From NCBI GenBank assembly GCA_963675515.1, contig OY776328.1, positions 2,340,001-2,372,000 of the forward strand: a DNA stretch of 32,000 bases, read 5' to 3'. The first letter of the stretch is position 1; each line of letters starts with the position of its first letter. Source of the DNA: Coprobacillaceae bacterium. GTDB lineage: Bacteria; Bacillota_I; Bacilli_A; Erysipelotrichales; Coprobacillaceae. The translations under genes and the position numbers were made by a program. Under the pieces are notes generated by a model. The model was not told the DNA's origin and made no database searches. It saw only the letters and a list, made by a program, of their open reading frames with translations. This document shows, piece by piece, positions 98 to 30,420 of the stretch.

Positions 98-829
98 ACT
101 GTAATATTCGTTGTTTCGTAATCCCGTGCTCACCGATGGATTATTCCTTTCGTTTAGAACAATTGTTTCCCATCATCTTATCAGACCCTGTGAGCTTCAT
201 TTAACTGTAACTGATTTTTAAAGAACCAGACTTGGGGCTATCCCTCCACCATTTTTCGTGGCTTCATCGGTACTGTGCCCCTACTTTCACGAGAATAAAA
301 ACACTTCGTTTACACTTATAGTTACCGTCCCGATAACAGTCGTTTAATAGACGTTTCTCGCTTACAACGTTCCAAATATTCTAGCTTTACATTTATCCTT
401 AGGTTCCTGCTATGAGCCTGATGAATTATACCCTCATTGTCGAGTATCTCGAATTTCATATCAACGATTCTTACTTTTCGATATTCACCGTTGCGCACGC
501 AACATGCCATCTTTCAATAGCACGACTTTCTAGACCCGTACATTCGCAGTTTCGTCAGTCCTTACACGGACATTCTCACCATAGATAATTTATAGCGTCC
601 CGGCCTATCCTTTACCATATGAAATATCACTTAGGTATTGTTCAGCCGACTTCACCTAGCTTCACACATAATTTTACTGTTATAACCTCATGCGTGTAGG
701 AGTATCAGACTACTTGTTTCAGGCTAACATGACAGCCATCATTCCAAGTATTGAATATTCAGTTGTGATTTTCCTATTGGAAAATCCTCCCATTTCATGC
801 CTAGGCACTTATAGGGAAACGTTTCGCAC
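1..829 (-). mobile_element. Group II intron, 5' portion (ribozyme region plus start of the intron-encoded protein ORF); runs off the left edge
   Basis: The minus strand reads ...ACT TTC AAC G|GTGCGAAACG at 830/829. GTGCG matches the GUGYG 5' consensus exactly where GH1 homology stops. About 730 nt follow with no credible ORF, then an RT/maturase-like ORF opens at 97 on the same strand. Confidence 0.65.
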
Positions 830-1418
830 CGTTGAAAGTCAGCCAGTACTTTACCTTGTCTCCGTAATTTTCAAACAGGACCTTGCACAGGCGCAAGTAA
901 CAATCAATCACCACCCGGCTTGACCAGCCGTCGTATTTGTCCGCGAGGACCACCGGAATCTCATCGTGGCAGATTGTAACCAATGGCTCGATGTTCCATT
1001 TGATGCATTCATCGATGACACCCTGGTAGAAGTCGATCCCTTCCTTGTTTGGTTCAGTCTCCTCACCGGTCGGGAAAATCCGGCTCCAGCAGATGGAAAA
1101 GCGCATCGTGGTCGATCCCATCTTCGCCAACAACTCGATATCCTCCTTGAAGCGGTGGTAGAAGTCTACCGCCTGGTGTGAGGGATAGTAGCGTTTTGGA
1201 TCGATATAGCCAACCGCATCATCAGGGATCGAACCGCGCATCGCCATCGCTCCCGTTGACCCGTCTTTTCTCTTGTAATTCATTTCTCGAGGCTTGTGCA
1301 ATGACCCGTCAGTTACGAAATCGCACGTCAGCAGGCCTCTGTTACCTTCGCCAAAGCCGCCTTCATACTGGAAGTCCGCACTGGCGCTGCCCCATAATAA
1401 ATCTTCAGGAAATCTCAT
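830..1418 (-). CDS. Glycoside hydrolase family 1 6-phospho-beta-glucosidase, exon 1 (N-terminal ~196 aa); the rest lies off-window beyond the intron
   Basis: MRFPEDLLWGSASADFQYEGG...YYPSHQAVDFYHRFKEDIELLAKMG...RFSICWSRIFP...KYWLTFN is a typical GH1 N-terminal half up to the TFNE acid/base motif. SD GGAGGA lies at 1428-1433. Confidence 0.8.
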
Positions 1419-1500: not shown

Positions 1501-2283
1501 TCATGAAACAAAGTATTTGGTTTTGTATTCGATGGCGATTGCGGTCGAATAGAAATTAAGCAGCATGCATGAAGCGAAATTGTAGCTGTCCGCAAGCCTG
1601 ATGTATCTATGGACAAATTTTTCCTCCGGTGAATCATTGACGGTGATCACATATATCTTTGGGATGTTCTTCCTGTTCATGACGTTCTTCCGGGGCAGGA
1701 CGCTGTCGAAAAAAGACGAAGTCGCCGAGAAGACGACTATCAGATCATCGCTTGTGGCCTTTTCGATGATCTTACGCTGCTTGAAGATGTCGCAGACATT
1801 GGCAACTACCTTGTTGAAACTAAGCAGGTCCTTCTGGAGCGAATTTGATATGCAGGACGACTGATACAGCCCCATCAATATCACATTGTCATAATTATGG
1901 ATGTCTTTGACTAGTTCCTCAAGTTCCGCCTGATTGAAGTTATTCTTGAATTTTTCAAGATGGACCATCGACTCATCGATGAAGTCGACCACATTGTTAT
2001 CGCTCTTCGATTCGAATGCGTACTTTTGGGATACCCTTTTGTGGGGCTGATAGGTCGAAATCAGCACCTTCAGGGTGAAAAAATCCTCAAGACCGATGTT
2101 GCGGCAAAAACGGCTGATCGAGGATTTGGACACATTGCAGGCCTTGGCCAAGTCAAGACTTGAACACTTCGACAAATCATAGACATTATGCAATATGTAA
2201 TCCGCGATTATATAATCAGTACTCCCGGGATCTTCCTTTTCGATTACCCCCAGCAATAATCCATGCAGTTCCATTAAAATCAC
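1501..2283 (-). CDS. RpiR/MurR-family transcriptional regulator (N-terminal HTH + SIS domain)
   Basis: SLDLAKACNVSKSSISRFCRNIGLEDF is an HTH_6-type helix-turn-helix. The C-terminal half (VILMGLYQSS...DLIVVFSATSS) is SIS-like. It sits next to a phospho-sugar hydrolase gene. Confidence 0.8.
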   Translation of the reverse strand: MILMELHGLLLGVIEKEDPGSTDYIIADYILHNVYDLSKCSSLDLAKACNVSKSSISRFCRNIGLEDFFTLKVLISTYQPHKRVSQKYAFESKSDNNVVDFIDESMVHLEKFKNNFNQAELEELVKDIHNYDNVILMGLYQSSCISNSLQKDLLSFNKVVANVCDIFKQRKIIEKATSDDLIVVFSATSSFFDSVLPRKNVMNRKNIPKIYVITVNDSPEEKFVHRYIRLADSYNFASCMLLNFYSTAIAIEYKTKYFVS

Positions 2284-2460
2284 CTCTTTGACCAGGATAC
2301 CATATCTTTATTTATCGCTTACTGTAATTTCAAATTATGATGGGTCATCTTTGTGTATTCCCTTATGGATGTAACCTTAGGTGTTGTTTTTTATCCAAAT
2401 GTGTATTTTTGATCTGGTGGAACGATTTGATATCTGCTACAATGCTTCTAGAGGTGGACT

Positions 2461-2847
2461 ATGAAAACAATAAGGGTAGTGGCAGCAATTATCGAAGACA
2501 AGGGAAAAATCCTGATTGCCAGGCGCAGTTATGGCGAATTCGAGGGTCTCTGGGAGTTCCCCGGAGGCAAGATCGAAGAGGGCGAAGATGGGATTGCCGC
2601 ATTGAAAAGGGAAATATTCGAAGAACTTAACGTCCATATTGAGGTTCATGATTTTTTCATGAAAGCCACATTCCAGTATCCGCAATTCTACCTGGATATG
2701 GATTGTTACAGGTGCACCCTGGCCAGCGATGACTTCAGGCTCGATTCCCACAGCCAGATCAGGTGGATCGACACCAATCAGGCGAATATCGATTGGGTAC
2801 CCGCCGATGTGCAGATTATCGAAAGGATGAAAGAACATGGATTGTAA
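2461..2847 (+). CDS. NUDIX hydrolase, MutT-like (8-oxo-dGTP / (d)CTP pyrophosphohydrolase type)
   Basis: Nudix box GGKIEEGEDGIAALKREIFEELNV, a size of 128 aa, and SD GAGGTGG upstream of the ATG. Confidence 0.85.
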   Translation: MKTIRVVAAIIEDKGKILIARRSYGEFEGLWEFPGGKIEEGEDGIAALKREIFEELNVHIEVHDFFMKATFQYPQFYLDMDCYRCTLASDDFRLDSHSQIRWIDTNQANIDWVPADVQIIERMKEHGL

Positions 2848-5617
2848 TATTGAACTGGTTACCAACGATTATGGCAACGGCCAGGTTGTCCTTGACAATC
2901 TTGACAATCAGCTAAGAAACTGCCACAGTTTCGACTTTTCAATCGCATTTGTCAATCAGTCGGGAATATCGATGATCAAGCAGGACCTGCTCGACCTTTC
3001 GTCCCGGAATGTTCAAGGACGCCTGGTGACTTCGACCTACCTTGGCTTCAATTCGCCCGAGGCTTTCAGGGAATTGTTGAAATTCCCGAATATCGAGGTC
3101 AGGATATTCCAGGATGCCGGATTCCATCCCAAAGGTTACCTCTTCTATGGGGACGAAAAGGTCAGCTGCATCGTCGGGTCTTCCAACCTGACCCAAAGCG
3201 CCCTGAAGACCAACCAGGAGTGGAACATATCGTTTTGCGACTACCATGACAGCGACATCATCCAGGAAATAACCGGCCAGTTCGAACGCCAGTGGCTTAG
3301 CAGCGTACCCCTTGATGAGCGGTGGATTGAAGACTATGAACTAAGCTATCAGGCCCCAACAAGTTCCAGAAATCTACAGGCTCCTTCGACAATCAGACCC
3401 AACGCCATGCAGGAACAGGCACTTGGATCGCTGGCATCATTGCGGGAAAACAATAAGAAAAAGGCCCTGTTGATATCGGCTACCGGAACCGGGAAAACGT
3501 ACCTGAGCGCCTTCGATGTAAGGGAAGTGAATCCTGATCGGGTCCTGTTCGTGGTTCATCGGGAAAACATCGCCCGCAATGCGCTTGAATCATTCAGACG
3601 GATCATGCCTGATAAGCGATTTGGACTGTTTACCGGAACGCAAAAGGACGACTGCCCTTACCTGTTTGCGACAATCCAGACAATCGGAAAGCCGGAATAC
3701 TTCAGGCGATTCCAGCCGGACCATTTCGATTATATCATCATCGATGAGGTCCATCGTGCCGGGGCCCACTCTTACCAGGGGCTCATCGATTATTTCAAAC
3801 CCAAGTTTCTTCTTGGGATGAGTGCCACCCCGGAGCGTAATGACGACTTCGACATCTATGCCTTATTCGACCACAATATCGCCTATGAGATCAGGTTGAA
3901 ACAGGCCCTCGAATATGACCTGATCTGTCCTTTCCATTATTTCGGGATAACCGATCTGGTCGTCGAAGGCCAGACCCTTGACGACAATGCCCAGTTCAAC
4001 CTGCTCACCTCGCCAGAACGGGTCGACCACATAGTCAAGAACATCGAACTGTATGGCCATTATGGCAGCAAGGTGCGCGGCCTGATATTTGTGAGCCGCA
4101 ATGAGGAAGCCCGGGAACTGTCATCATTGCTTAATGTCCGGGGCTACCGGACGCTTGCCCTTAGCGGTTCGAGCAGCGAGCAGGAGCGGGAAGATGCGAT
4201 CAGCCGGCTTGAACTTGATGAATGCGATGACTGCCTTGACTACATATTCAGTGTCGACATATTCAATGAAGGAATCGACATCCCCAAAGTCAACCAGATC
4301 GTGATGCTCCGTCCCACCGAATCGGCGATCATCTTTGTCCAACAGCTGGGCCGGGGATTGCGCAAGGTTGAGCAGAAAGATTACGTCGTAGTCCTGGATT
4401 TCATCGCCAATTACCAGAACAACTACATGATTCCCCTGGCGCTTTCGGGTGACCGCAGCTACAACAAGGACATCATGCGCAAGACTCTCATCACCTCGAA
4501 AGCCTTCATCCCGGGCTGTTCAAGCGTGTCCTTCGATGAGATTTCCAAGAAGCGGATATTCAAGTCTATCGACCAGGTCTCATTCAACAGCCTGAGTCTG
4601 CTGAAAAAGGAATACTTCGCCCTTAAAAACAAGCTGGGCCGGATCCCCAACATCAGCGATTTTGACACCTACGATGCGGTGGATATCCAGATAATTTTCG
4701 ACAAGACCAAGAGCTATCATAACTTTTTGGTGAAAAATGACAAGGACTATAAGGTCAGGTTCGATAAAATCCAGGAAAACATGCTTGAGTTTGTCTGCAG
4801 CAAGCTGGCCAACGGCAAAAGGGATAACGAACTGATGATTCTTAAAAAACTGATATTCAAACACGCTTATAAGGTGGACAGTTCGAAGGAAATCAGTGAT
4901 CTGCTTACAAAAAACACCTACAAGGTTCTTACCAATGATTTTTGTGTCAGCTCAAACTCGGTCAAGACCTTCAAACATGCGGTATTTCTTGGCGTCGAAA
5001 ATGGTCATTACCTGATCAGCGAAAGCTTCAAGCAGGCCCTCAAAGATATCGAATTCGCCGACCATCTTTGCCAGGTTGTCGATTACGCCCTCGACCTGGC
5101 AAAAAGAAAATACGGCCATAAATACCCGGGCACGGATCTCACCCTTTATCAAAAATACAGCTACGAGGATGTCTGCCGCCTGCTTGACTGGGATACGAAT
5201 GTTGTCGCGACAAATATCGGCGGCTACAAATACGACAAAAAGACAAACACCCTCCCGGTATTCATCAACTATTCCAAGGAAGATACGATCAGCGAAACCA
5301 TCAAATACGAAGATCAGTTCCTGAATAATCGTACGCTGATGGCATTGTCCAAAAACAACCGCTCCTTGAATTCACCCGATATCCAAAGAATCAAGGATTC
5401 AACCAAAACAGGAACATTGATCCTGCTTTTCGTGAGAAAAAACAAGAACGATTCCCAAAGCAAGGATTTCTATTTTTTAGGCAAGATCGTTCCAACTGGA
5501 GATTTTGAAGAGATTTTGATGAAGAACACCAACTCCAATGCCATCGAGATAACGTATCGCTTGGAAACACCAGTTTTGGACGAGCTATATGATTACCTTA
5601 CAACTGCCATAGACTAA
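2837..5617 (+). CDS. Fusion protein: N-terminal PLD-family (NgoFVII-like) nuclease domain, SF2 ResIII/DEAD-type helicase core, and a C-terminal DUF3427-like domain
   Basis: PLD motif FHPKGYLF..CIVGSSNLT. Helicase motifs SATGTGKT (I), IIIDEVH (II), MSATPER (III) and QQLGRGLR (VI). C-terminal block YSYEDVCRLLDW...LILLFVRKNKNDSQSKDFYFLGKI matches my recollection of DUF3427. The start overlaps the NUDIX stop by 11 nt. Confidence 0.85.
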   Translation: MDCNIELVTNDYGNGQVVLDNLDNQLRNCHSFDFSIAFVNQSGISMIKQDLLDLSSRNVQGRLVTSTYLGFNSPEAFRELLKFPNIEVRIFQDAGFHPKGYLFYGDEKVSCIVGSSNLTQSALKTNQEWNISFCDYHDSDIIQEITGQFERQWLSSVPLDERWIEDYELSYQAPTSSRNLQAPSTIRPNAMQEQALGSLASLRENNKKKALLISATGTGKTYLSAFDVREVNPDRVLFVVHRENIARNALESFRRIMPDKRFGLFTGTQKDDCPYLFATIQTIGKPEYFRRFQPDHFDYIIIDEVHRAGAHSYQGLIDYFKPKFLLGMSATPERNDDFDIYALFDHNIAYEIRLKQALEYDLICPFHYFGITDLVVEGQTLDDNAQFNLLTSPERVDHIVKNIELYGHYGSKVRGLIFVSRNEEARELSSLLNVRGYRTLALSGSSSEQEREDAISRLELDECDDCLDYIFSVDIFNEGIDIPKVNQIVMLRPTESAIIFVQQLGRGLRKVEQKDYVVVLDFIANYQNNYMIPLALSGDRSYNKDIMRKTLITSKAFIPGCSSVSFDEISKKRIFKSIDQVSFNSLSLLKKEYFALKNKLGRIPNISDFDTYDAVDIQIIFDKTKSYHNFLVKNDKDYKVRFDKIQENMLEFVCSKLANGKRDNELMILKKLIFKHAYKVDSSKEISDLLTKNTYKVLTNDFCVSSNSVKTFKHAVFLGVENGHYLISESFKQALKDIEFADHLCQVVDYALDLAKRKYGHKYPGTDLTLYQKYSYEDVCRLLDWDTNVVATNIGGYKYDKKTNTLPVFINYSKEDTISETIKYEDQFLNNRTLMALSKNNRSLNSPDIQRIKDSTKTGTLILLFVRKNKNDSQSKDFYFLGKIVPTGDFEEILMKNTNSNAIEITYRLETPVLDELYDYLTTAID

Positions 5618-5640
5618 AAAAAGCCCATGCGGGCTTTTTC
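5616..5640. terminator. Bidirectional rho-independent terminator
   Basis: AAAAAAGCCC-ATGC-GGGCTTTTT: a GC stem flanked by an A-run and a T-run, immediately after the helicase stop. Confidence 0.7.
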
Positions 5641-5725
5641 ATTTGTACCCGCGGACCAGGAACATCAATACAAGTACCGGGAACAGGGCAATGTAGAAAA
5701 GCATCTTAAACATAAATCTGATCAT
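5639..5725 (-). CDS. Possible 28-aa hydrophobic peptide (MIRFMFKMLFYIALFPVLVLMFLVRGYK)
   Basis: ATG at 5725 is preceded by GAAAGGCAGG 8 nt upstream and lies 19 nt after the DUF1722 stop. It ends at the terminator. It has one predicted TM helix with a basic C-terminus. There is no homology evidence. Confidence 0.25.
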   Translation of the reverse strand: MIRFMFKMLFYIALFPVLVLMFLVRGYK

Positions 5726-5744
5726 AGATAAACCTGCCTTTCAA

Positions 5745-6431
5745 TCACTTGAAATACCTGAAAAGGGTCTGATTCGCCAGATAGTCGCTTCCATAAACGA
5801 TGGAAAGTTCATGAAGGATGCCTACAGGCTCCTTCAATACTACTTTGCCGGCATGGTATGAGTCGAGAATTTCCAGGAAATCCCGCTTTTGTTGCGAATC
5901 CAGCTCATTCTTGAAATAGCCAAACATATGAAGCAGGGTGTTGTTGACTTGCCCTAAAGTAGGAATCCCGCTAAGACAGCGGATCAGAGTGGTCCGGTAT
6001 TCTTCCAGTACGTCATCTTTGCCTTCCCTGTTTTGGCTAACCAGCGACCCCAGAATCTTTTGGTCGACCTGGCTGTACATCATAAGCAGGTATTTGTTTT
6101 CGCTTTGGAATGCAACCAGTTCCGGGAATGCGGAAACATCCCCGAAGTTAGACAAGGTTGCGATTCCAGCACGGACAAAGTCAAGATCACTTGTTTGTTC
6201 AACGAAGTATACCAGGAAATCCATTTTGTAAATAGATTCAGTAGTGGGGAATGATTTTGGCAAGATTAACGCTGCGATATCACTGGTGATTGGAGATTCA
6301 CCCAAACATGACTGGAAATCTTCCGGGTCAAAGAAACGTTTAATTTCATACGATTTTTCCAGGATACCAATCATATCATTGTAAACTGGATCATCACATT
6401 CGAGGGCCAGAATGATCTTTCCTGTACTCAC
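5745..6431 (-). CDS. DUF1722 (YbgA-like) domain protein with an extra ~100-aa N-terminal domain
   Basis: The C-terminal half (KYLLMMYSQ...NNTLLHMFGYFKNELDSQQKRDFLEILDSYHAGKVVLKEPVGILHEL...YLANQTLF) matches the YbgA/DUF1722 pattern. The GTG start overlaps the upstream stop (GTGA). Confidence 0.75.
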   Translation of the reverse strand: MSTGKIILALECDDPVYNDMIGILEKSYEIKRFFDPEDFQSCLGESPITSDIAALILPKSFPTTESIYKMDFLVYFVEQTSDLDFVRAGIATLSNFGDVSAFPELVAFQSENKYLLMMYSQVDQKILGSLVSQNREGKDDVLEEYRTTLIRCLSGIPTLGQVNNTLLHMFGYFKNELDSQQKRDFLEILDSYHAGKVVLKEPVGILHELSIVYGSDYLANQTLFRYFK

Positions 6432-7231
6432 GAATACCAGGGATTTTTACGATTTGACATGTCCCGCGCCAGCAATACCGCTCCTCCAAGTATTATCACA
6501 AATGAAAGAACCAGGCTGCCTAGCACAATCGGGTACTGCCCGTCGAAACCGGAACTCGCCAGATGCTTGATGCCAATTCCGATGTAGGCCCATACCAGTA
6601 CAGCGTTGTAGAAAAATGACCGGTATTTGACGGTCGCCCCAAGTCCGATGGCCGCTCCCACAACCAGGATGATGGCAGTCATCAGCTCCTGCGATAGAGG
6701 ATAGCCCTGGTATCCAAGCGATACAAGGAACACTGTGACATTGGCTATTGTAGCCACTGTGATCCAGCCAAAATAGACGAAAAACGGGATCCGGACAAGA
6801 ATGTTGTCCCTGGCATCGAAGCGCTCATCCTTAAGGATCAAGGCGATCCGGATCAGGCTGACCAGAATTACAGCCATCAAGATTAAAGTCGCGAAGATGA
6901 TCCGGTAGTGCCAGGCGAAAATCCAAAGTGTGTTGGCTATCGAAGAGACAATGTAATACTTGTTTATCTTGGTCACCTTGTCGGACAGATCGTAATCCTG
7001 GCTGGCTTTAAGCTGATAGAGCGTGTATCCACCAAGAAGAAGATAGATCACTCCCCAGATCGCAAAAGTCAGTCCCGTTGGAGCGAACAGGTTCCCATAA
7101 GAATCGGACACCGCTCCGGTAGTGACGTTGTTCAACGGCAAAGCGTTGGCCAGGAAATTGACGACGACCATTGCAATAAAACCAACCAGCGCCACCAATG
7201 ATGTGAATCGGGCATTTTTAGAGACTCTCAT
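6428..7231 (-). CDS. Polytopic membrane protein, TspO/MBR-related (tryptophan-rich sensory protein-like) by recollection
   Basis: There are 7-8 hydrophobic segments. The N-terminal NALPLNNVTTGAVSDSYGNLFAPTGLTFAIWGVIY resembles long Firmicute TspO/MBR-annotated proteins. SD AAGGAGGGAG lies upstream. Confidence 0.6.
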   Translation of the reverse strand: MRVSKNARFTSLVALVGFIAMVVVNFLANALPLNNVTTGAVSDSYGNLFAPTGLTFAIWGVIYLLLGGYTLYQLKASQDYDLSDKVTKINKYYIVSSIANTLWIFAWHYRIIFATLILMAVILVSLIRIALILKDERFDARDNILVRIPFFVYFGWITVATIANVTVFLVSLGYQGYPLSQELMTAIILVVGAAIGLGATVKYRSFFYNAVLVWAYIGIGIKHLASSGFDGQYPIVLGSLVLSFVIILGGAVLLARDMSNRKNPWYS

Positions 7232-7289: not shown

Positions 7290-7381
7290 TTCCTTGATAA
7301 CATTATAGCATACATTATTTGAGTTTGTGTTATAATAAGATTACAAATTTCAACACATTGTATCTTTGGATTGGAGGATAT

Positions 7382-7888
7382 ATGAATAAGAAAGTAATTG
7401 TGAACGACAAGATGCAGCGCAACTATGTCTATTATCTAAGCGAACCGGTTGGCGAAAACTTCCATCCCGATTTCCAGCCGGAACTTACTCCCAGCCAGAT
7501 GCTCGAGCTAGGAGTGTTCGGCGGCAAATACATGAGAGACTGCCAGAAGGAATTCCCGTCCCAATGGTTCGCCAATGCCAAACTGGCAAAGGGAAAAAAA
7601 GACATCAGTCTCAACTTTTTCCAGGTTGATGCCTCGCTTCCACTTCGCCATTGGCAGGAAAAAGGATGGATAAATCACAACGATCCCCGGGGTTGGTTCC
7701 AGTGGTATTGTCGCTATTATATGGGCCGTCGGCTACCAGAAGAAGACCAGCGCCAGATCAGACGATGGCTGGCGATAAAACGTCATGTGGGTGCGATCAG
7801 GAAAAACTGCATCCCGCTGGATCTGGATTGCCGGAAGAAGCAACGCCAGGCGCTGCTCCACTGGGCCTACGACAGCCGCAGAATATGA
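7382..7888 (+). CDS. Conserved hypothetical protein (168 aa)
   Basis: GGAGG lies 6 nt upstream of the ATG at 7382. The motif DPRGWFQWYCRYYMGRRLPEEDQRQIRRW looks like a conserved family that I cannot name. A terminator follows. Confidence 0.75.
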   Translation: MNKKVIVNDKMQRNYVYYLSEPVGENFHPDFQPELTPSQMLELGVFGGKYMRDCQKEFPSQWFANAKLAKGKKDISLNFFQVDASLPLRHWQEKGWINHNDPRGWFQWYCRYYMGRRLPEEDQRQIRRWLAIKRHVGAIRKNCIPLDLDCRKKQRQALLHWAYDSRRI

Positions 7889-11808: not shown

Positions 11809-13224
11809 GTGAATTTGTGTACACTGAAAACAACCACCGTCGTGGCTTAAATTTTATTTTACATTTGTATAATTATATTAATGCCGTTTCGTCAAATGGG
11901 ATGTTTTCAGATAACAATTTATAAATTACTCTTATTAGTTTGCGAACCGAATGGCCTTGGGCGCATCGATGGGATTTACCTTGGGAACGTTTTAGGTTAT
12001 AATAACTATTGAAAGTGGGATTATTGGAACATACTGTAAGAATGCATTGATAAAGTGTCTTTCTCAAATAACGCGAACCGCGTTTTGACAAAGCTGTCTG
12101 CGGAGAGTTGTATTCTCCGGACTGATAGGTCCCGGGATCAACCCCGGCAAAACCGATAATTTTTGTAGCTGAGCTGAAACTATCGATGTCTCCAATTTCA
12201 CTTAATATTGACATTCCTGAGTATGTACCGATGCCCGGGATAGTAAAGATAGGAGAGTTTAGTGTGATGGCTAATTCTTCTATTTTTTTATCCACAATTG
12301 ACAATTGGGATTTGATCAATTCTATTGCTTCGATAAGCATACCAATTTCCATGGTAATTACTTCATTGTTTTCACCGATTGACTGTTTTGCTGCTTCACG
12401 AAGTGATACAGCGTCGACATCCGCATGGTTACCTCTACCTTTTGGTTTGAGGACATTCTTGAGATGGGTAAGATTGGCATTGGCTAGATTATATGAGTTC
12501 CCAAACTCCTTTAAAATAGCCATGTAAGCCCGTGAGTACTTTGTTTTGAACCAAATGTTAATCTCAGGAATTACGATATCGATACACTTTTGAAGTCTGT
12601 TTTTATTTTGATTGAGATCTTCGGTAAGTGTTGCATGATACCGGGTCAATTCCTTGGCTTGTTTCAAAGCTAATTTGCGCTTTGTAACCCGGGTGTAGTC
12701 TTTGTCAAAAAGCACTGAGCAAATCAGGAAAGTGTCTTTCTTGTCATTTTTGGTTTTCCTGATTTTTCCACGACGTTTGGCGTCAGTGGTCAACGGATTT
12801 ATCATTCCGACTTCATAATCGTTTGAAATTAGAAAATTGACGATATTGTCGCCGTAATGGCCAGTGGCCTCTAGACCGACAATATGTCGCGAAGACTTGA
12901 ATTGGCTTGTATTGTTAAGAAACAAGTCGAATCCAGCGTGATCGTTGGTGAAGAAAAACGGTTTAACCAACACTTCACCATTAGAGTCAACAACGCAGGC
13001 ACAGTGTTTGAATTTACCTACGTCAATACCTATGTAATACATGATAACACGTCCTTTCGTATTCAGTGATGTGCGACTATCCACATACAAGGTATCAAAG
13101 ATCCTGGTGCAAAATACAAGTTCAAAGACTTATCTAACTAATTACAATTCAGATACAAAGATGTGGCAATGTCCTCCTCGAGGTAGTCAAGCTACAGGTA
13201 ATAAAAATCAAAGTACACATTCAC
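11809..13224 (-). mobile_element. IS110-family insertion sequence (boundaries approximate)
   Basis: It contains a DEDD-type transposase gene. Imperfect terminal inverted repeats are GTGAATTTGTGTAC (11809-11822) and the reverse complement of 13213-13224, GTGAATGTGTAC. The region is visibly A+T-rich, with 182 nt of non-coding 5' end and 64 nt of 3' end. Confidence 0.7.
11873..13042 (-). CDS. IS110-family transposase/recombinase
   Basis: MYYIGIDVGK...GLEATGHY...KTKNDKKDT (DEDD N-domain) and IPGIGTYSGMSILSEIGDIDSF...SKRGSRYLRKTLY (C-domain). GAAAGGA SD lies upstream of the Met at 13042. Confidence 0.92.
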   Translation of the reverse strand: MYYIGIDVGKFKHCACVVDSNGEVLVKPFFFTNDHAGFDLFLNNTSQFKSSRHIVGLEATGHYGDNIVNFLISNDYEVGMINPLTTDAKRRGKIRKTKNDKKDTFLICSVLFDKDYTRVTKRKLALKQAKELTRYHATLTEDLNQNKNRLQKCIDIVIPEINIWFKTKYSRAYMAILKEFGNSYNLANANLTHLKNVLKPKGRGNHADVDAVSLREAAKQSIGENNEVITMEIGMLIEAIELIKSQLSIVDKKIEELAITLNSPIFTIPGIGTYSGMSILSEIGDIDSFSSATKIIGFAGVDPGTYQSGEYNSPQTALSKRGSRYLRKTLYQCILTVCSNNPTFNSYYNLKRSQGKSHRCAQGHSVRKLIRVIYKLLSENIPFDETALI

Positions 13225-13271
13225 AATTTAATTTTAAAACAAAAAACTAAGAAAGGAAAATGTATATTAAA

Positions 13272-13300
13272 TTGACTGATAGATAAGTCATTTATAATAT
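13272..13300 (+). promoter_or_regulatory. kamA promoter candidate
   Basis: TTGACT (13272-13277), a 17-nt spacer, then TAATAT (or TATAAT with a 15-nt spacer). Confidence 0.55.
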
Positions 13301-13312
13301 ACCAGGATATGA

Positions 13313-14566
13313 ATGAATATCAAGAAAAACAATGAAAAATGGCATGACTACAAATGGCAACTGCAAAACCGGATCACCTCGATCGAGCAGGTCGAGAAGA
13401 TTCTCGAAATCCGTTTCGAACCCGGATTGCGCAGCCAACTCGAGAAAACAATAGCTACATTCCCTCTGTCGATAACCCCGTATTACCTATCCCTGGTGGA
13501 CGCGGGCGACTTCCATAACGATCCGGTATTCCAACAGGCATTCCCCAGTCCCAAGGAGCTCGATGTCTCAAGCTGTGACATCCTGGATCCGCTAAACGAG
13601 GACGGTGACAGCCCGGTGACTGGAATCACCCACCGCTACCCCGACCGGGTCCTGTTCCATGTTTCCAACGTATGCGCCATGTACTGCCGCCACTGTACCC
13701 GCAAACGCAAGGTTGGCGACACCGATTTCAACCCGACCATCGAACATTACCAGGCAGGAATCGAATACATAGCCTGCCATCCTGAAATCCGCGATGTACT
13801 TCTTTCCGGGGGCGATCCCTTCCTGCTCGAGGATGAGACTATAAGATTGTTGCTGGAAAAAATCAGTGAAATCGAGCACGTTGAAGTGATCCGCATCGGA
13901 ACCCGGACACCGGTAGTGCTGCCTTTCAGGATCACTGACAATCTTGTGGCCATATTGAAAAAACACAAAAACCTGTGGATCAACACCCACTTCAACCACC
14001 CCAAGGAGATATCATCGGAGGCGATTGCCGCCCTTGACAAGCTTGCAGAAGCGGGCATCCCACTAGGGAACCAAAGCGTCCTGCTCGCAAATGTCAATGA
14101 CTGCTCGAAAATCATGAAAAAGCTTGTTCAGAAGCTGACCGCCCACCGGGTCCGCCCTTACTACATGTACCAATGCGACCTCTCTTACGGCCTGGAACAT
14201 TTCCGGACCAGCGTAGGTAAAGGGATCGAAATCATGGAAAGCTTGCGCGGCCATACCAGCGGTTATGCGGTTCCGACATATGTCATCGATGCCCCCGGCG
14301 GCGGAGGGAAAATCCCGATCATGCCAAACTATCTGATGTCATGGTCCACCAACAAGGTTGTATTGCGAAACTACGAAGGCATGATAACGACCTACCAGGA
14401 ACCTGGCAACTACGAACCGAACTATTGTGACCTCAACTGCAAGGATTGCAGCCTGCAATTCAAATATGATCAAAAGGACAACTACAAGCCGATCGGACTC
14501 GAGAAACTCCTGTGCGACACCGATGACCTGATCACCCTGACCCCGATGGAGCTGTCAGGTGAATAG
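13313..14566 (+). CDS. kamA: Lysine 2,3-aminomutase (radical SAM, KamA/AblA family)
   Basis: [31 protein letters not shown] (CxxxCxxC) and [10 protein letters not shown], a length of 417 aa, and a C-terminal Cys cluster. Confidence 0.9.
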
Positions 14567-15413
14567 GGGCGATATCATCGAGGAATTGAACGGTTTTGCC
14601 ATCCAGTTTGGAAAACTCTCCGACCGGGTCTACCTTCTCGATTACCTCGAAAAATACGACAGGTTGCTCCTTGAAAACATCAATGTCCTGGCCAGATACC
14701 ACAATTACTCCAAGATCATCATCAAGGCAGGCAAAGATGCCGCCGCCAGGCTGGAAAAGGACGGATTCGCCTGTGAGGGCAAAGTCGAAGGATACCACAG
14801 AGGCCAACAGGATGCCTTTTTCATGGTGAAGTATCTTAACCCCAGACGGTATGAACATGACAAGACAGCCTTGAAGCAAGTGCTCGAAAAATCCGGCCGA
14901 CTGCAGGAAGATAATCCAGGAAGTCTGCCAAGCCAGTACCAGATCCGCCTGCTGAAATTGCAGGATGTTCCGGAAATGGCCGCTCTTTTCAAAAGAGTAT
15001 TCACTACCTATCCGTTTCCGATTTTCGAGGAAGAATATCTTCGCGAAACGATGGGGGACAACTGCATCTACCTGGGCGTCTTTTTCCAGGAAAAGCTAGT
15101 CGGCATATCTAATTGCGAAACCACCAAGGAACATCTGGCCTGCGAAATGACGGATTTCGCAATCGATGAGTGCCATCGGGGCCAGAAGCTGGCGCGCCAT
15201 CTTCTTTTGGCGATGGAAAACCGGCTCCGGGAAATGAATTTCAAGACCGTCTACACAATTGCCCGGTCCGCTTCCCTGCCAATGAACGCTACCTTCAAAA
15301 AATCCGGTTACATATATGGAGGAACTCTGATAAACAACACCCAGATCTCGGGGTCAATCGAGTCGATGAACATCTATTACAAGCCCCTGTCAATGCAAGC
15401 AAATCAGCATTAG
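14559..15413 (+). CDS. ablB: Beta-lysine N6-acetyltransferase-like GNAT (AblB/YodP family)
   Basis: The GTG start overlaps the kamA stop by 8 nt. GNAT core [18 protein letters not shown] and the C-terminal [19 protein letters not shown] are typical of AblB-type proteins encoded next to kamA. Confidence 0.75.
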
Positions 15414-24809: not shown

Positions 24810-25958
24810 CTACAGTTTGTATCTAAGACGCATCTGGTCGATCAGTTCGTCGGTGTTGACATTGCCACAATAATCGCGATAAAGGTCGATGTATGATCCC
24901 GCGAAACACTCACCCTGTTCGCATTCCAGTTCGATGGCCCGCTCCAGGATTTCAACAATCTGGGGCAGCCGTTCGGGATCGATATTATGGATGTAATGGA
25001 CGATTTTCAAAGGGTCCTCCATCAGGTAATCGATCAAGGCGTCATCATCCTGGATCGATTCGACAAAGTAAAGATATTTTGCCATCAGCTCTTCATCCTT
25101 GAAGCGCTCCTCGTCGAGAAAGGCGCTTTTGATCTGACTGTTGATTTCCATCTCGTCATCAAAAAGCTGGTTCATTTTCTCATAATATTCGACATGACCA
25201 AGTATGAAAAGGCGTGCTCCGACTTCCAGGGCGTCAAGGACCCGGTCCTCGATTTCGAACAGTTCGAACTGGACCTTGAGCAGTTGGGCGATTTCCTCTT
25301 TTACAAAGCGGTCGTCCTCGAGGTACTTGTCGATGCAGATGATGGCGTCATCGTATTTCTTCGCGGCCATCTTGCCGGCGCAATATGACATGATCTGGTG
25401 GATTGTCAAAAAGCCCTCGTCGATTTCCAGATGCAGCTCAACCTTGTCCTCCTTGATCGCATTCATGCAATAGGCGATTGTTGCCACAACCCGCTCGTTG
25501 TAATCATTGCCGTCGCCACCCATCTTTTCCAGGTGGTCGTTGAAAATCTCCATTATTTCCTGGTCGAAGTCGAACTCCAGCACGCTTTCAAGACAGGCGG
25601 AGATGTACTCGTCATATTTTATGAACAGTTCCAGCTTGGTGGCTTTGATGATATTTCGATAAATGCTCATCCTGGTGGATTTTAAAGATGAAAGTGTGTC
25701 CTCGACCACGTCAGCGAGATTTTCAAGGACGCTTAGTCCTTCGAGATACAACGGCTCGAAAAGGTCATTGTCGCTGTCATAAATTTCCAGATACTTGTAT
25801 GCCGCCAACAAAAGCAGCTCTGAATACCGGATCTTGTCATCCTCATTATCTTCTAAAAACATGTTAATCGAATGGGTCAAAAAGTAAAAGTCGAACTCCT
25901 GATTATTGTCGTTCATCGATTCGAGTATTTCACTAAACCTCTGGTCAACCTCGTTCAT
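24810..25958 (-). CDS. Hypothetical, strongly acidic, predicted all-helical protein (382 aa)
   Basis: AAGGAG lies 6 nt upstream of the ATG at 25958. The gene has its own promoter region and terminator. D/E-rich runs include EDNEDD, DSDNDLFE, DDEMEIN and QDDDALIDYLMED. I recognise no family. Confidence 0.7.
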   Translation of the reverse strand: MNEVDQRFSEILESMNDNNQEFDFYFLTHSINMFLEDNEDDKIRYSELLLLAAYKYLEIYDSDNDLFEPLYLEGLSVLENLADVVEDTLSSLKSTRMSIYRNIIKATKLELFIKYDEYISACLESVLEFDFDQEIMEIFNDHLEKMGGDGNDYNERVVATIAYCMNAIKEDKVELHLEIDEGFLTIHQIMSYCAGKMAAKKYDDAIICIDKYLEDDRFVKEEIAQLLKVQFELFEIEDRVLDALEVGARLFILGHVEYYEKMNQLFDDEMEINSQIKSAFLDEERFKDEELMAKYLYFVESIQDDDALIDYLMEDPLKIVHYIHNIDPERLPQIVEILERAIELECEQGECFAGSYIDLYRDYCGNVNTDELIDQMRLRYKL

Positions 25959-26134
25959 TGCTGTCTCCTTAATCGTAATAATATCAATTATACCCCTTTT
26001 TATTGATGGCGACAACCGCTATCAATTAAGATGACGGCATATTTCAATTTTAAGCGATTTTGCCGGTTGCCCTTTTATCCTTTTCCCAAATCTACCGGCA
26101 TGAAGTGCATCTTGCAGGTCAAAAGCGGGCTAGC

Positions 26135-28386: not shown

Positions 28387-28905
28387 ATGCTTAGTTTAAT
28401 TCAATTAGATATACTCGATTGGGAACAGCGAAAGTTAGGCGATATACTCAATGAATTTACAAAGAAATCAAAAATCGAAAATGAATATGAGGTACTTTCT
28501 AGTACAAATTCAGGAATGGAATTTCGAGACGGACGTGTATCAGGATCATCAAATTTGGGATACAAAATTATCGAAGATGGAGATCTGGTTCTATCACCAC
28601 AAAATTTGTGGTTAGGTAATATTAACGTAAATGATATTGGAACTGGCCTAGTTTCGCCAAGTTATAAGACCTTTAAGTTCAACAATATTATTGGCAAATT
28701 TGTTGAGCCTCAATTACGAACAAAAAAAATGCTGGAGGAATATAAGAATGCGTCCACACAAGGAGCGAGCGTTGTTAGACGTAATCTTGACATGGATGCA
28801 TTTAATCAAATAACAATTCGAGCCCCAAAGATTCCAGAGCAAGAAAAAATTGGGCACTTCTTTTCAAATTTGGACAACCTTATCACTCTTCATCAGCGTG
28901 TGTGA
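28387..28905 (+). CDS. hsdS: Type I R-M specificity subunit half-gene A (single target-recognition domain, truncated conserved region); probably a silent cassette
   Basis: ..DWEQRKLGDIL.. TRD ..EQEKIGHFFSNLDNLITLHQRV-stop. There is no SD in front of the ATG at 28387. Confidence 0.7.
   Translation: MLSLIQLDILDWEQRKLGDILNEFTKKSKIENEYEVLSSTNSGMEFRDGRVSGSSNLGYKIIEDGDLVLSPQNLWLGNINVNDIGTGLVSPSYKTFKFNNIIGKFVEPQLRTKKMLEEYKNASTQGASVVRRNLDMDAFNQITIRAPKIPEQEKIGHFFSNLDNLITLHQRV
28876..28904 (+). repeat. Inverted repeat, left copy (candidate recombination site)
   Basis: AACCTTATCACTCTTCATCAGCGTGTGTG. The partner at 29872-29900 is its reverse complement with 1 mismatch (19 nt perfect). Confidence 0.85.
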
Positions 28906-28930
28906 ACAGTCTATAAGGAGAAATTTTCTT

Positions 28931-30395: not shown

Positions 30396-30408
30396 TCGCC
30401 ACTTCTCT
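30378..30408 (-). terminator. Terminator-like hairpin between hsdM and hsdS-B
   Basis: Minus strand AGAGAAGT-GGCGATTGCT-ACTTCTCT followed by TTTTTT. The only in-frame start (TTG at 30395) sits in the loop. Confidence 0.45.
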
Positions 30409-30420
30409 ATTACGCACTGA

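What the first reader, a model, noticed from the sequence alone, without database searches (positions are those of the whole stretch)
2461..5617. Overlapping NUDIX + PLD-nuclease/SF2-helicase/DUF3427 gene pair: candidate uncharacterised nucleic-acid surveillance or defence module
- A 128-aa MutT-type NUDIX gene overlaps by 11 nt the start of a 926-aa protein.
- That protein combines three parts: an NgoFVII-like PLD nuclease motif (HPKGYLF..GSSNLT), a complete SF2 helicase core (ATGTGKT, DEVH, SAT, QQLGRGLR), and a C-terminal block I recognise as DUF3427-like. A middle region of unknown function separates the last two.
- Nuclease + helicase + a possible reader domain in one polypeptide is the layout of modification-dependent (type IV-like) restriction enzymes and several phage-defence proteins. 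I know of no experimentally established role for this architecture.
- The tight overlap with a nucleotide-sanitising hydrolase suggests a functional link to non-canonical or modified nucleotides. The NUDIX could trim a modified (d)NTP pool while the helicase-nuclease acts on DNA containing such bases, or the NUDIX could act as a self-protection partner.
- The functional link is inference only.
Basis: partly seen in the sequence, partly recalled or inferred. Interest (0 to 1): 0.7.

Follow-up and report, generated by a model that had tools for sequence, protein, structure and literature searches.

The report
SauUSI-type restriction enzyme with NUDIX partner
This gene pair is a new member of an already characterised bacterial defence system, the SauUSI family of enzymes that cut foreign DNA carrying methylated cytosine; its small NUDIX partner gene is an almost universal companion whose job is untested but is probably to destroy methylated-cytosine building blocks so that the cell does not cut its own DNA.

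Summary
In detail: a 128-aa NUDIX gene (2461-2847) overlaps by 11 nt a 926-aa PLD-nuclease/SF2-helicase/DUF3427 gene (2837-5617). [quoted passage not shown] All catalytic residues are conserved. The NUDIX linkage was noted in 2011, and a 2012 deletion in S. aureus was reported not to give the transformable phenotype. I measured the linkage. In 72 of 74 informative SauUSI-family loci from several bacterial phyla and archaea, a NUDIX homologue lies next to the gene, upstream or downstream (69/144 adjacent versus 3/541 non-adjacent gene slots). Starting from the NUDIX, 16 of 26 loci with full flanks carry SauUSI, so the dependency runs one way. The closest characterised relative (B. fragilis 3GWY) hydrolyses 5-methyl- and 5-hydroxymethyl-dCTP at about 5e6 M-1 s-1, the triphosphates of the bases SauUSI recognises. 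Best explanation, by inference (about 0.5): the NUDIX clears these nucleotides from the pool to prevent self-restriction. Verdict: new member of a known kind, with modest interest.

The parts
2451..2457 (+). Shine-Dalgarno-like GAGGTGG, 3 nt upstream of the NUDIX start codon
   Evidence: Read directly from the sequence. The consensus promoter scan found nothing above chance in 2000-6000.
2461..2847 (+). NUDIX hydrolase gene (128 aa) of the MutT/NudG-like clade that PADLOC calls PDC-S07
   Evidence: ORF. Pfam NUDIX E 3e-18. PADLOC PDC-S07 E 1.2e-45 over the full length. Best PDB relative is 3GWY at E 1.9e-19.
2566..2631 (+). NUDIX box (aa 36-57, GKIEEGEDGIAALKREIFEELN), the catalytic metal-binding motif
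   Evidence: G36, E42, R50, E51, E54 and E55 are invariant in all 73 SauUSI-linked NUDIX homologues.
2794..2808 (+). C-terminal W-V-P-A-D motif (aa 112-116). A115-D116 is invariant in the linked clade and shared with the 5-methyl-dCTP-active enzymes 3GWY and MutT2; E. coli MutT has Asn at the D116 position
   Evidence: Column counts. A role in base recognition is recalled from the NudG/MutT literature and was not tested here.
2837..2847 (+). 11-nt overlap between the NUDIX stop and the start of the restriction gene, suggesting co-transcription and translational coupling
   Evidence: The 77%-identical relative L167 has a 17-nt overlap. The family-wide median gap is 14 nt when the NUDIX is downstream.
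2837..5617 (+). SauUSI-family type IV (5mC/5hmC-dependent, ATP-dependent) restriction endonuclease gene, 926 aa
   Evidence: PADLOC mREase_IV PDLC03658 E 9.6e-220, aa 16-922 on profile 38-952 of 953. PDB 7CLG E 1.4e-215, aa 15-922 on 37-952. 42.3% identity over 893 positions.
2837..3343 (+). PLD-family nuclease domain (aa 1-169, matching SauUSI 1-191). The catalytic HxK is H97/K99 at nt 3125-3133
   Evidence: Pfam PLDc_2 and RE_NgoFVII. H97 maps to SauUSI H119, whose H119A mutant is used as the nuclease-inactive enzyme. H and K are present in 78/80 homologues, with gaps in the other 2.
3392..4585 (+). SF2 DExH helicase-like ATPase and translocase (aa 186-583, matching SauUSI 221-617)
   Evidence: ResIII and Helicase_C. 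Walker A K220/T221, DEVH 303-306 and motif VI R506/R509 are conserved with SauUSI and in 78-80 of 80 homologues.
4586..5146 (+). Coupler domain (aa 584-770, matching SauUSI 618-805).
   Evidence: Boundaries taken from the SauUSI structure paper and mapped through the HMMER alignment. This is the least conserved stretch of that alignment.
5147..5614 (+). Target-recognition domain with an SRA fold (aa 771-926, the C-terminal part of Pfam DUF3427).
   Evidence: The SauUSI TRD 806-953 has an SRA fold. Modelled pocket residues Y831/F841/I842/D858 map to Y797/F809/I810/D826, which are conserved. W868 maps to A836 and M829 to G795; these are the majority residues in the family (A 64/80, G 72/80).

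Best explanation
The region is a two-gene operon.

**Gene 2 (shown by homology, confidence about 0.95).** It encodes a SauUSI-family type IV restriction endonuclease. By analogy with SauUSI it works as follows:
- It acts as a dimer.
- The C-terminal SRA-like domain flips out 5-methylcytosine or 5-hydroxymethylcytosine in incoming DNA.
- That recognition switches on the SF2 ATPase, which translocates along double-stranded DNA and extrudes loops.
- The N-terminal PLD nuclease then makes double-strand breaks, and repeated cycles shred the modified DNA.
- There is no protective methyltransferase. The host is safe only as long as its own DNA contains no 5mC or 5hmC.

**Gene 1 (inferred, confidence about 0.5).** It encodes a catalytically intact NUDIX pyrophosphohydrolase of the NudG/MutT2/3GWY clade. 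[quoted passage not shown] These triphosphates could arise from salvage of degraded methylated DNA, including the enzyme's own restriction products, or from phage metabolism. Polymerases do not discriminate against them. Removing them stops replication from writing sporadic modified cytosines into the chromosome, which would make it a target for the partner enzyme. On this reading the NUDIX is the self-protection arm of a restriction system that has no modification arm.
For: **Gene 2**
- End-to-end match to SauUSI and to the PADLOC type IV model.
- Nuclease, ATPase and most modelled pocket residues are conserved.
- The SauUSI mechanism comes from published biochemistry, structure and single-molecule work.
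- No methyltransferase gene is adjacent. The only one in the window is an N6-adenine HsdM about 25 kb away.

**Gene 1**
- (a) A NUDIX homologue is adjacent in 72 of 74 informative SauUSI-family loci. These come from Bacillota, Bacteroidota, Spirochaetes, Actinobacteria, Proteobacteria and methanogenic archaea. Counts are 69/144 adjacent versus 3/541 non-adjacent gene slots, odds ratio about 165.
- (b) Gene order varies (19 upstream, 54 downstream, 4 of these on the opposite strand) while linkage and tight spacing persist. The linkage also covers deeply divergent SauUSI-like proteins.
- (c) The dependency is one-way. Only 16 of 26 NUDIX-centred loci with full flanks have SauUSI, and the rest have unrelated neighbours. 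This fits an independently useful sanitiser that the nuclease cannot do without.
- (d) NUDIX-box residues are invariant in 73/73 linked homologues, so these are active enzymes.
- (e) The closest characterised relative, B. fragilis Q5LBB1 (3GWY), hydrolyses 5-Me-dCTP and 5-hydroxymethyl-dCTP at kcat/Km 4-5e6 M-1 s-1 with much lower activity on canonical NTPs. It is 45-53% identical to SauUSI-linked NUDIXes, and a 55%-identical relative overlaps a SauUSI gene in L171. E. coli NudG and mycobacterial MutT2 also prefer 5-methyl-dCTP.
- (f) 5-methyl-dCTP is incorporated like dCTP and probably arises from degraded methylated DNA.
- (g) SauUSI can start on hemimethylated sites, and cleavage can be triggered by preferred sequences or DNA ends. 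Sporadic incorporation would therefore be dangerous.
- (h) The same NUDIX clade sits in an operon with McrBC, another restriction system that depends on modified cytosine, in a Vibrio genome.
Against: - No experiment connects any SauUSI-linked NUDIX to 5-substituted dCTP. The window protein is only 37% identical to 3GWY. It scores below the NCBIfam cut-offs for both NudG (81 versus 156 bits) and MutT (72 versus 98 bits).
- 3GWY itself is not SauUSI-linked in B. fragilis-type contigs.
- The S. aureus nudix deletion was viable with SauUSI present (data not shown in that paper). The NUDIX is therefore not an essential antidote under laboratory growth, although no 5mC source was supplied in that test.
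- Whether bacterial kinases convert 5-methyl-dCMP to the triphosphate efficiently is not established here.
- Two SauUSI loci with adequate flanks lack an adjacent NUDIX (L001, L043).
- The clade also pairs with a nuclease-helicase candidate, PDC-S41, that has no recognisable 5mC reader.
- The sampled loci are phylogenetically related, so the p-value is nominal.
Confidence: 0.5

Rival explanations
1. The NUDIX is a second offensive arm rather than a safety device. It starves phages that build their genomes from 5-hydroxymethyl-dCTP or 5-methyl-dCTP, or it depletes dCTP itself, while the nuclease attacks DNA that already contains the modified base. The two genes would then hit the precursor pool and the polymer.
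For: - The substrate range of the characterised relatives is the same.
- PADLOC lists the NUDIX family as a stand-alone phage-defence candidate, PDC-S07.
- The NUDIX sits inside a multi-system defence operon in Vibrio: HsdR, NUDIX, PDC-S41, McrBC.
- It also pairs with PDC-S41, which has no obvious 5mC reader.
- From general knowledge, dNTP-depleting defence enzymes exist (dCTP deaminase, dGTPase).
Against: - Removing 5hm-dCTP would lower the modified-base content of phage DNA and so remove the partner nuclease's target. The two activities would work against each other.
- Most 5mC in foreign DNA is added after replication by methyltransferases and never passes through a triphosphate pool. That makes near-universal (97%) linkage hard to explain by a threat from a minority of phages.
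- PDC-S07 has no reported experimental anti-phage activity in the papers found.
- 3GWY has much lower activity on canonical NTPs, which argues against dCTP depletion.
Confidence: 0.2
2. The NUDIX is a general house-cleaning antimutator of the MutT/NudG type, acting for example on oxidised or deaminated nucleotides. It is co-transcribed with the nuclease because DNA shredding floods the cell with damaged or unbalanced nucleotides, or because a tightly fused operon is inherited as a unit. On this reading it has nothing specifically to do with 5-substituted cytosine.
For: - Best NCBIfam hits include MutT and generic Nudix models, all below their cut-offs.
- About 40% of the closest NUDIX relatives stand alone in ordinary metabolic neighbourhoods.
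- The literature treats 5-methyl-dCTP hydrolysis as an antimutator activity.
- The S. aureus deletion is reported not to give the transformable phenotype of the sauUSI deletion.
Against: - Inheritance as a unit does not explain linkage that survives repeated changes of gene order and strand, and that spans bacteria and archaea.
- The clade carries the invariant A-D motif of the cytosine-preferring enzymes, not the Asn of E. coli MutT. It is only 25-36% identical to MutT.
- A NUDIX occurs in only 3 of 541 non-adjacent flanking genes.
Confidence: 0.15
3. The NUDIX serves the nuclease's ATPase chemistry directly. It might break down pyrophosphate or nucleotide products of ATP/dATP hydrolysis (the 2011 suggestion), or act as a physical regulatory subunit.
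For: - Xu et al. 2011 proposed it.
- The 11-nt overlap suggests matched expression of the two proteins.
Against: - SauUSI was purified and is fully active without it.
- The deletion is reported not to give the transformable phenotype of a sauUSI deletion.
- From established enzymology, SF2 ATPases release ADP and phosphate, not pyrophosphate, and NUDIX enzymes do not hydrolyse free pyrophosphate.
- No NUDIX-SauUSI fusion appears among the 120 listed homologues.
Confidence: 0.03

Closest known systems
SauUSI (S. aureus SAUSA300_2431; PDB 7CLG), an ATP-dependent type IV restriction endonuclease
   Same: - Collinear over the whole length, aa 15-922 on 37-952.
- Same domain order: PLD nuclease, SF2 DExH ATPase, coupler, SRA-like TRD.
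- Catalytic His/Lys, Walker A/B and motif VI are conserved, as are four of six modelled pocket residues.
- A NUDIX gene lies immediately upstream in both.
- No adjacent methyltransferase.
   Different: - Only 42% identical, and about 27 aa shorter.
- W868 is Ala, M829 is Gly and R283 is Asn in the window protein. For the two pocket positions (W868, M829) the window has the family-majority residue and S. aureus is the outlier; at the R283 position the family mostly has Gln (64/80) and neither protein matches it.
- Sequence context (S5mCNGS in SauUSI) and the preference between 5mC and 5hmC are untested for this protein.
SAUSA300_2432-type NUDIX linked to sauUSI, the PADLOC candidate family PDC-S07
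   Same: - Same family: PDC-S07 E 1.2e-45.
- Same position upstream of the nuclease.
- Intact NUDIX box.
   Different: - The window protein belongs to the 'RGYGEF..WEFPGGK' sub-type, which usually lies downstream of the nuclease (44% mean identity to downstream-type versus 37% to upstream-type).
- The function is unproven in either organism.
B. fragilis Q5LBB1 (PDB 3GWY), a 5-methyl-/5-hydroxymethyl-(d)CTP pyrophosphohydrolase
   Same: - Best solved-structure match (E 1.9e-19).
- Shares the NUDIX box and the C-terminal W-x-x-A-D motif.
- Lies within the range of identity that SauUSI-linked NUDIXes show to one another.
   Different: - 37% identical to the window protein.
- Carries a short insertion before the EFPGGK motif.
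- Its own gene is not next to a SauUSI homologue.
E. coli NudG (Orf135) and mycobacterial MutT2
   Same: - Same NUDIX sub-clade by profile and PDB matches.
- Both are reported to prefer 5-methyl-dCTP.
   Different: - The window protein is below the NCBIfam equivalog cut-off for NudG (81 versus 156 bits).
- Both also hydrolyse CTP/dCTP.
- Neither is reported to be linked to a restriction enzyme.
Human DCTPP1 (works alike, not related)
   Same: It clears 5-methyl-dCTP from the pool and so limits unscheduled 5mC in DNA (title and abstract). This is the same logic as proposed for the NUDIX.
   Different: MazG-like fold, not NUDIX. Its context is eukaryotic epigenetics, not restriction.
McrBC and other 5mC-dependent type IV systems
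   Same: - Restriction that depends on modified cytosine, with NTP-driven translocation and no cognate methylase.
- In one Vibrio locus the same NUDIX clade sits in the McrBC operon.
   Different: Unrelated proteins: a GTP-dependent AAA+ motor plus a PD-(D/E)xK nuclease in two subunits.

Membership tests
SauUSI family (type IV modification-dependent restriction endonuclease) | N-terminal PLD-family nuclease with a catalytic HxK and a GSxN motif | tested here: met
   PLDc_2 and RE_NgoFVII are above their gathering scores. H97/K99 align with SauUSI H119/K121 and are present in 78/80 homologues.
SauUSI family (type IV modification-dependent restriction endonuclease) | Central SF2 DExH helicase-like ATPase with motifs I, II, III and VI | tested here: met
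   ResIII and Helicase_C. K220/T221, D303-E304-x-H306 and R506/R509 are conserved.
SauUSI family (type IV modification-dependent restriction endonuclease) | Coupler followed by a C-terminal SRA-fold target-recognition domain (Pfam DUF3427) with a 5mC pocket | tested here: met
   DUF3427 E 5.5e-71 over the full profile. Y797, F809, I810 and D826 match the modelled pocket. The positions of W868 and M829 differ but carry the family-majority residues. The fold is inferred from homology to 7CLG and was not modelled here.
SauUSI family (type IV modification-dependent restriction endonuclease) | Full-length collinear similarity to the type enzyme and the curated family model | tested here: met
   7CLG E 1.4e-215, aa 15-922. 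PADLOC mREase_IV PDLC03658 E 9.6e-220.
SauUSI family (type IV modification-dependent restriction endonuclease) | No cognate methyltransferase adjacent | tested here: met
   The flanking genes are an RpiR regulator and DUF1722. The only DNA methyltransferase in the window is a type I HsdM (N6-adenine) at 30421-31962.
SauUSI family (type IV modification-dependent restriction endonuclease) | ATP-dependent cleavage of DNA containing 5mC or 5hmC, and restriction of methylated plasmids or phages in vivo | not testable with these tools
   Requires purified protein and transformation or phage assays.
SauUSI family (type IV modification-dependent restriction endonuclease) | Linked MutT/NUDIX gene (a conserved accessory, not formally defining) | tested here: met
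   11-nt overlap in the window. Present in 72/74 informative homologous loci. Reported for S. aureus.
NUDIX hydrolase superfamily | NUDIX box GX5EX7REUXEEXGU with the catalytic Glu and Arg residues | tested here: met
   aa 36-57 GKIEEGEDGIAALKREIFEELN. The only departure is N57 at the penultimate Gly position, which varies across the clade. Pfam NUDIX 66.5 bits against a 21.1-bit cut-off.
NudG (pyrimidine (d)NTP / 5-methyl-dCTP diphosphatase) equivalog, NCBIfam NF007834 | Score at or above the curated equivalog cut-off | tested here: not met
   81.4 bits against a cut-off of 156. It is related to NudG but cannot be called NudG.
MutT (8-oxo-dGTP diphosphatase) equivalog, TIGR00586 / NF008044 | Score at or above the curated equivalog cut-off, and Asn at the base-recognition position | tested here: not met
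   71.9 bits against 97.9, and 56.6 against 148. Asp (D116) replaces the MutT Asn in all 73 linked homologues.
5-substituted dCTP pyrophosphohydrolase activity (as in 3GWY) | High kcat/Km for 5-methyl-dCTP or 5-hydroxymethyl-dCTP compared with dCTP | not testable with these tools
   Known only for the 37%-identical relative 3GWY.
Defence island context | Clustering with other defence systems or mobile elements | tested here: not met
   The neighbours are RpiR, a GH1 fragment, DUF1722, FeoB, Fur and metabolic genes. The locus is syntenic in a related species. The nearest other defence genes are a type I R-M locus about 23 kb away.

The most novel reading that the evidence does not exclude
Cleaning the nucleotide pool may be the self-protection arm of modification-dependent restriction. 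On this reading the NUDIX partner is an immunity factor. It keeps 5-methyl- and 5-hydroxymethyl-dCTP, which are partly produced by the nuclease's own shredding of foreign DNA, out of the chromosome. It would play the part that the methyltransferase plays in classical restriction-modification. The same NUDIX clade also sits beside McrBC and beside an uncharacterised nuclease-helicase candidate (PDC-S41). It could therefore be a portable safety module for several defence nucleases, and a weak point that phages or plasmids could exploit.
Probability: 0.45. Interest if true: 0.6.

Novelty: new member of a known kind. Interest (0 to 1): 0.3.

Why it matters
The large gene needs no new explanation. 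It can be annotated as a SauUSI-family type IV restriction enzyme, and it predicts that this organism will resist transformation with Dcm-methylated or other 5mC-methylated DNA. That is useful to know for genetic work in gut Bacillota.

The open point is the NUDIX partner. It was noticed in 2011, and in the searchable literature it has never been explained. The measurements here turn it into a specific experiment:
- linkage in about 97% of loci across bacteria and archaea;
- variable gene order with preserved linkage;
- one-way dependency;
- invariant catalytic residues;
- a characterised relative whose substrates mirror the nuclease's target bases.

If the self-protection idea holds, it would show how a restriction system without a modification enzyme avoids autoimmunity. 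It would also explain why PADLOC flags this NUDIX as a defence candidate.

Tried and rejected
- **Uncharacterised architecture:** rejected. The protein matches SauUSI over its full length.
- **Defence-island context:** rejected. The neighbours are housekeeping genes and the locus is syntenic in a relative.
- **Is the measured 5-Me-dCTPase (3GWY) itself SauUSI-linked?** No. Its B. fragilis-type orthologues (L081, L082) and a Parabacteroides relative (L083-85) stand alone. The biochemical link therefore rests on clade membership only.
- **Do NUDIX loci without SauUSI share another neighbour?** None was found among the 10 loci with full flanks. Their neighbours are unrelated.
- **Host organism:** not identified. 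Exact look-ups of the window proteins returned no record or name. The named relatives of the large protein are Erysipelotrichaceae, Thomasclavelia and Peptacetobacter at 51-53% identity.
- **Promoter and terminator scan of 2000-6000:** nothing above the shuffled expectation.
- **PDC-S41 partner against solved structures:** no match. No paper mentions it.
- **Published role for the NUDIX:** searches combining Nudix with SauUSI, type IV restriction, McrBC, 5-methyl-dCTP, nucleotide pool and PDC-S07 found only the 2011 note, the 2012 deletion and survey listings.
- **Altered specificity from the W868A and M829G differences:** rejected as evidence, because these are the majority residues in the family.
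- **Not attempted:** structure prediction, which full-length homology to a crystal structure makes unnecessary; and the identity of PDB 5X1X (a 130-aa 'MutT'), which resembles the upstream-type linked NUDIXes at 49-52% identity.

Full report
**1. Observation.**
- The window has a 128-aa ORF at 2461-2847 and a 926-aa ORF at 2837-5617 on the + strand, sharing 11 nt.
- Both start codons have purine-rich ribosome-binding sequences upstream.

**2. What the large gene is.**
- PADLOC matches it over its full length to the 'type IV methyl-directed restriction enzyme' model PDLC03658 (E 9.6e-220).
- A search of solved structures matches aa 15-922 to residues 37-952 of PDB 7CLG (E 1.4e-215). That entry is S. 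aureus SauUSI.
- Identity is 42.3% over 893 aligned positions.
- SauUSI is well studied:
  - It cleaves DNA containing 5mC and 5hmC, preferring S5mCNGS, needs ATP, and restricts Dcm+ plasmids and phage (Xu 2011).
  - It is the main barrier to transformation of S. aureus (Monk 2012).
  - Its crystal structure shows a PLD nuclease (1-191), an SF2 ATPase (221-617), a coupler (618-805) and an SRA-fold target-recognition domain (806-953) (Tumuluri 2021).
  - Single-molecule work shows unidirectional and loop translocation started by 5mC, including from hemimethylated sites. Cleavage is triggered by a distal site, by preferred sequences or by DNA ends (Shaw 2025).
- Mapping through the alignment gives window domains of 1-169, 186-583, 584-770 and 771-926.
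- H97/K99, K220/T221, D303/E304/H306, R506/R509 and pocket residues Y797, F809, I810 and D826 are conserved.
- The window differs at the positions of W868 (Ala), M829 (Gly) and R283 (Asn). Among 80 homologues, Ala (64/80) and Gly (72/80) are the majority residues at the first two, so at those pocket positions the S. aureus enzyme is the atypical one.

**3. What the small gene is.**
- The NUDIX box (aa 36-57) is intact.
- The protein matches PADLOC candidate PDC-S07 at E 1.2e-45.
- It scores below the curated cut-offs for NudG and MutT, so it is an equivalog of neither.
- Its best solved relatives are 3GWY ('putative CTP pyrophosphohydrolase', B. fragilis), 5X1X, MutT2 and NudG.
- 3GWY (Q5LBB1) has been characterised. 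Its kcat/Km values are 6.7e6 for 5-Me-CTP, 4.8e6 for 5-Me-dCTP and 4.4e6 M-1 s-1 for 5-hydroxymethyl-dCTP. Activity on canonical NTPs is much lower.
- The window NUDIX is 37% identical to 3GWY and 25% to E. coli MutT.
- All 73 SauUSI-linked NUDIXes share an invariant C-terminal Ala-Asp with 3GWY, 5X1X and MutT2. E. coli MutT has Asn at that position.

**4. Is the pairing conserved?**

*From the nuclease side.*
- I fetched 80 SauUSI-family loci from one-genome-per-species contigs (43-51% identity). They come from Bacillota, Bacteroidota, Spirochaetes, Collinsella, Succinatimonas and Methanosarcinaceae/Methanolobus archaea.
- 72 carry a NUDIX homologue (E 1e-19 to 1e-39) beside the nuclease gene.
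- Of the 8 without, 6 have contigs that end too close to the gene. That leaves 72 of 74 informative loci.
- NUDIX homologues fill 69 of 144 adjacent gene slots but only 3 of 541 other flanking genes. The odds ratio is about 165 and the nominal p is 7e-50. The loci are not independent.
- The NUDIX is upstream in 19 cases and downstream in 54, four of those on the opposite strand.
- The median gap is 14 nt for the downstream type and 66 nt for the upstream type, and some pairs overlap.
- The window's NUDIX lies upstream but is of the sequence sub-type usually found downstream. Gene order has therefore been reshuffled while linkage was kept.

*From the NUDIX side.*
- I fetched 80 metagenome loci centred on the closest relatives of the window NUDIX.
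- 31 to 37 have an adjacent SauUSI-like gene. Among the 26 with at least 3.2 kb on both sides, 16 do.
- These include a deeply divergent branch (E about 1e-85 to 1e-99) with the same four-domain architecture.
- The other 10 share no neighbour family, and their neighbours are unrelated genes.
- Among seven 3GWY-like NUDIXes, one overlaps a SauUSI gene on a Bacteroidota conjugative element (L171). Two overlap or abut a Schlafen-g3-type helicase that PADLOC calls PDC-S41. One of those two lies in a Vibrio operon of HsdR, NUDIX, PDC-S41 and McrBC. Four stand alone, including the 3GWY orthologues themselves.

*Conclusion.* The dependency runs one way. The nuclease almost never occurs without the NUDIX, but the NUDIX often occurs without the nuclease.

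**5. What was already known about the pairing.**
- Xu et al. 2011 wrote that a conserved MutT/NUDIX gene (SAUSA300_2432) is linked to sauUSI. They also reported that at least 60 SauUSI-like genes are linked to such hydrolases. They guessed at pyrophosphate breakdown and said the function remained to be examined.
- Monk et al. 2012 deleted the S. aureus gene. The mutant was obtained and did not gain the transformable phenotype, so the NUDIX is not needed for restriction (data not shown in that paper).
- PADLOC lists the family as candidate PDC-S07. The papers that mention it only tabulate it.
- I found no paper that connects this NUDIX with 5-substituted dCTP or with self-protection. The library covers open-access papers and bioRxiv only.

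**6. Most likely mechanism.**

*Shown by homology:* gene 2 is a SauUSI-type enzyme that reads flipped-out 5mC/5hmC, translocates on ATP and cuts with a PLD nuclease dimer.

*Inferred:* because the system has no methyltransferase, self DNA is safe only while it lacks 5mC and 5hmC. The argument has four steps:
- The nuclease itself generates such degradation products.
- SauUSI responds to hemimethylated sites and can cut without a second site. Sporadic incorporation would therefore be hazardous.
- A partner that hydrolyses exactly these triphosphates would remove the hazard.

This reading fits the near-obligate linkage seen from the nuclease side, the free-standing existence of the NUDIX, the invariant catalytic residues and the substrate range of the characterised relatives. 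I give this role about 0.5. SauUSI-family membership of the large gene I put at about 0.95.

**7. Rivals.**
- **Offensive pool depletion against phages that use 5hm-dCTP or 5m-dCTP (0.2).** It fits the defence-candidate listing and the Vibrio operon. However, it would remove the nuclease's own target, and it concerns a minority of threats.
- **A general antimutator with no specific link to 5-substituted cytosine (0.15).** It fits the stand-alone copies. It does not explain linkage that survives rearrangement across domains of life.
- **Direct service to the ATPase, or a regulatory subunit (0.03).** It conflicts with the activity of purified SauUSI alone and with the deletion result.

**8. Context.**
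- The pair lies between a divergently transcribed RpiR-type regulator and a convergent DUF1722 gene. Nearby are a truncated GH1 glycosidase, FeoB/Fur, an IS110 transposase and metabolic genes.
- A relative with a 77%-identical nuclease has the same order: intact GH1, RpiR, NUDIX, nuclease (17-nt overlap), DUF1722 and on to FeoB.
- The pair is therefore a stable chromosomal operon in this lineage and not part of a defence island.
- The only DNA methyltransferase in the window is an N6-adenine type I HsdM, which does not conflict with a 5mC-dependent nuclease.

**9. Verdict.** The finding is real and correctly described. It is a new member (42% identical) of a known and well-characterised system, and the gene pairing was itself noted 15 years ago. 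What remains open is the role of the NUDIX partner. The comparative data here give a specific, testable proposal for it. Interest is modest.

**10. Limits.**
- The host organism was not identified.
- Gene calls in the loci are ORF-based, with approximate start sites.
- Only 26 loci in the NUDIX-side test had adequate flanks.
- No substrate, structure or phenotype was determined for the window proteins.

Noticed in passing
L086:6400-8187, L168:5405-7402, L108:3-773: The same NUDIX clade (PDC-S07) overlaps or abuts a 595-665-aa Schlafen-group-3-type helicase that matches PADLOC candidate PDC-S41 (E 1e-240 and 7e-116). In the Vibrio locus the order is HsdS, HsdR, NUDIX, PDC-S41, McrB, McrC. The first ~235 aa of PDC-S41 have no Pfam match but contain a D...ExK pattern (RIDVILL..SLEFK), suggesting a PD-(D/E)xK nuclease. 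It has no PDB match and no paper mentions it.
   Followed up: partly
L172-L182 (viral contigs): Eleven SauUSI relatives occur on IMG/VR viral contigs. Nine of their ORFs begin at query residue ~200-300 and two others at ~96 and ~171, so they appear to lack all or most of the N-terminal PLD nuclease (helicase, coupler and DUF3427 only). Three (L172, L174, L176) have the NUDIX just downstream. I did not examine which nuclease, if any, partners them.
   Followed up: no
L144:3296-6059 and L163:2610-5203: Fragmented, frameshifted remnants of a SauUSI-like gene lie next to an intact NUDIX gene. The NUDIX seems to outlive the nuclease when the pair decays.
   Followed up: partly
L131:2989-9453 and L062:5426-9261: L131 has two SauUSI-like genes flanking one NUDIX. 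L062 has two NUDIX genes, one on each side of the nuclease gene.
   Followed up: no
window 26135-27166 (-): A 343-aa fusion of a Maf domain with a GIY-YIG nuclease domain. Maf proteins are house-cleaning pyrophosphatases for modified pyrimidine NTPs, so this is a second nucleotide-sanitising enzyme in the window, with an unusual partner domain.
   Followed up: no
window 28387-31962: A type I restriction-modification locus that looks phase-variable. Two HsdS half-genes on opposite strands flank a phage-integrase-type recombinase, next to an HsdM N6-adenine methyltransferase. GC content drops to 0.35-0.38 here, against about 0.47 elsewhere.
   Followed up: partly
window 801-1418 (-): A GH1 glycosidase fragment of 205 aa, where the Pfam profile is 453 positions long. 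The syntenic relative L167 has an intact 484-aa gene with a PTS EIIC gene beside it, so this is probably a decaying pseudogene.
   Followed up: partly
window 11873-15413: An IS110-family transposase, followed by an overlapping lysine-2,3-aminomutase and GNAT acetyltransferase pair. Both sit between Fur and the ABC transporter. None of the three has a counterpart (by Pfam annotation) in the syntenic stretch of L167, which suggests an insertion.
   Followed up: no
window 6428-7231 (-), 7319-7888 (+), 24810-26015 (-): Three sizeable ORFs (267-aa multi-pass membrane protein, 189 aa, 401 aa) have no Pfam match. The first two are conserved in position in L167.
   Followed up: no
PDB 5X1X compared with L003, L076, L002: The unpublished 130-aa 'MutT' structure 5X1X is 49-52% identical to upstream-type SauUSI-linked NUDIXes from Bacillota. 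It may itself be a SauUSI partner, possibly the staphylococcal one. I did not determine its source organism.
   Followed up: no
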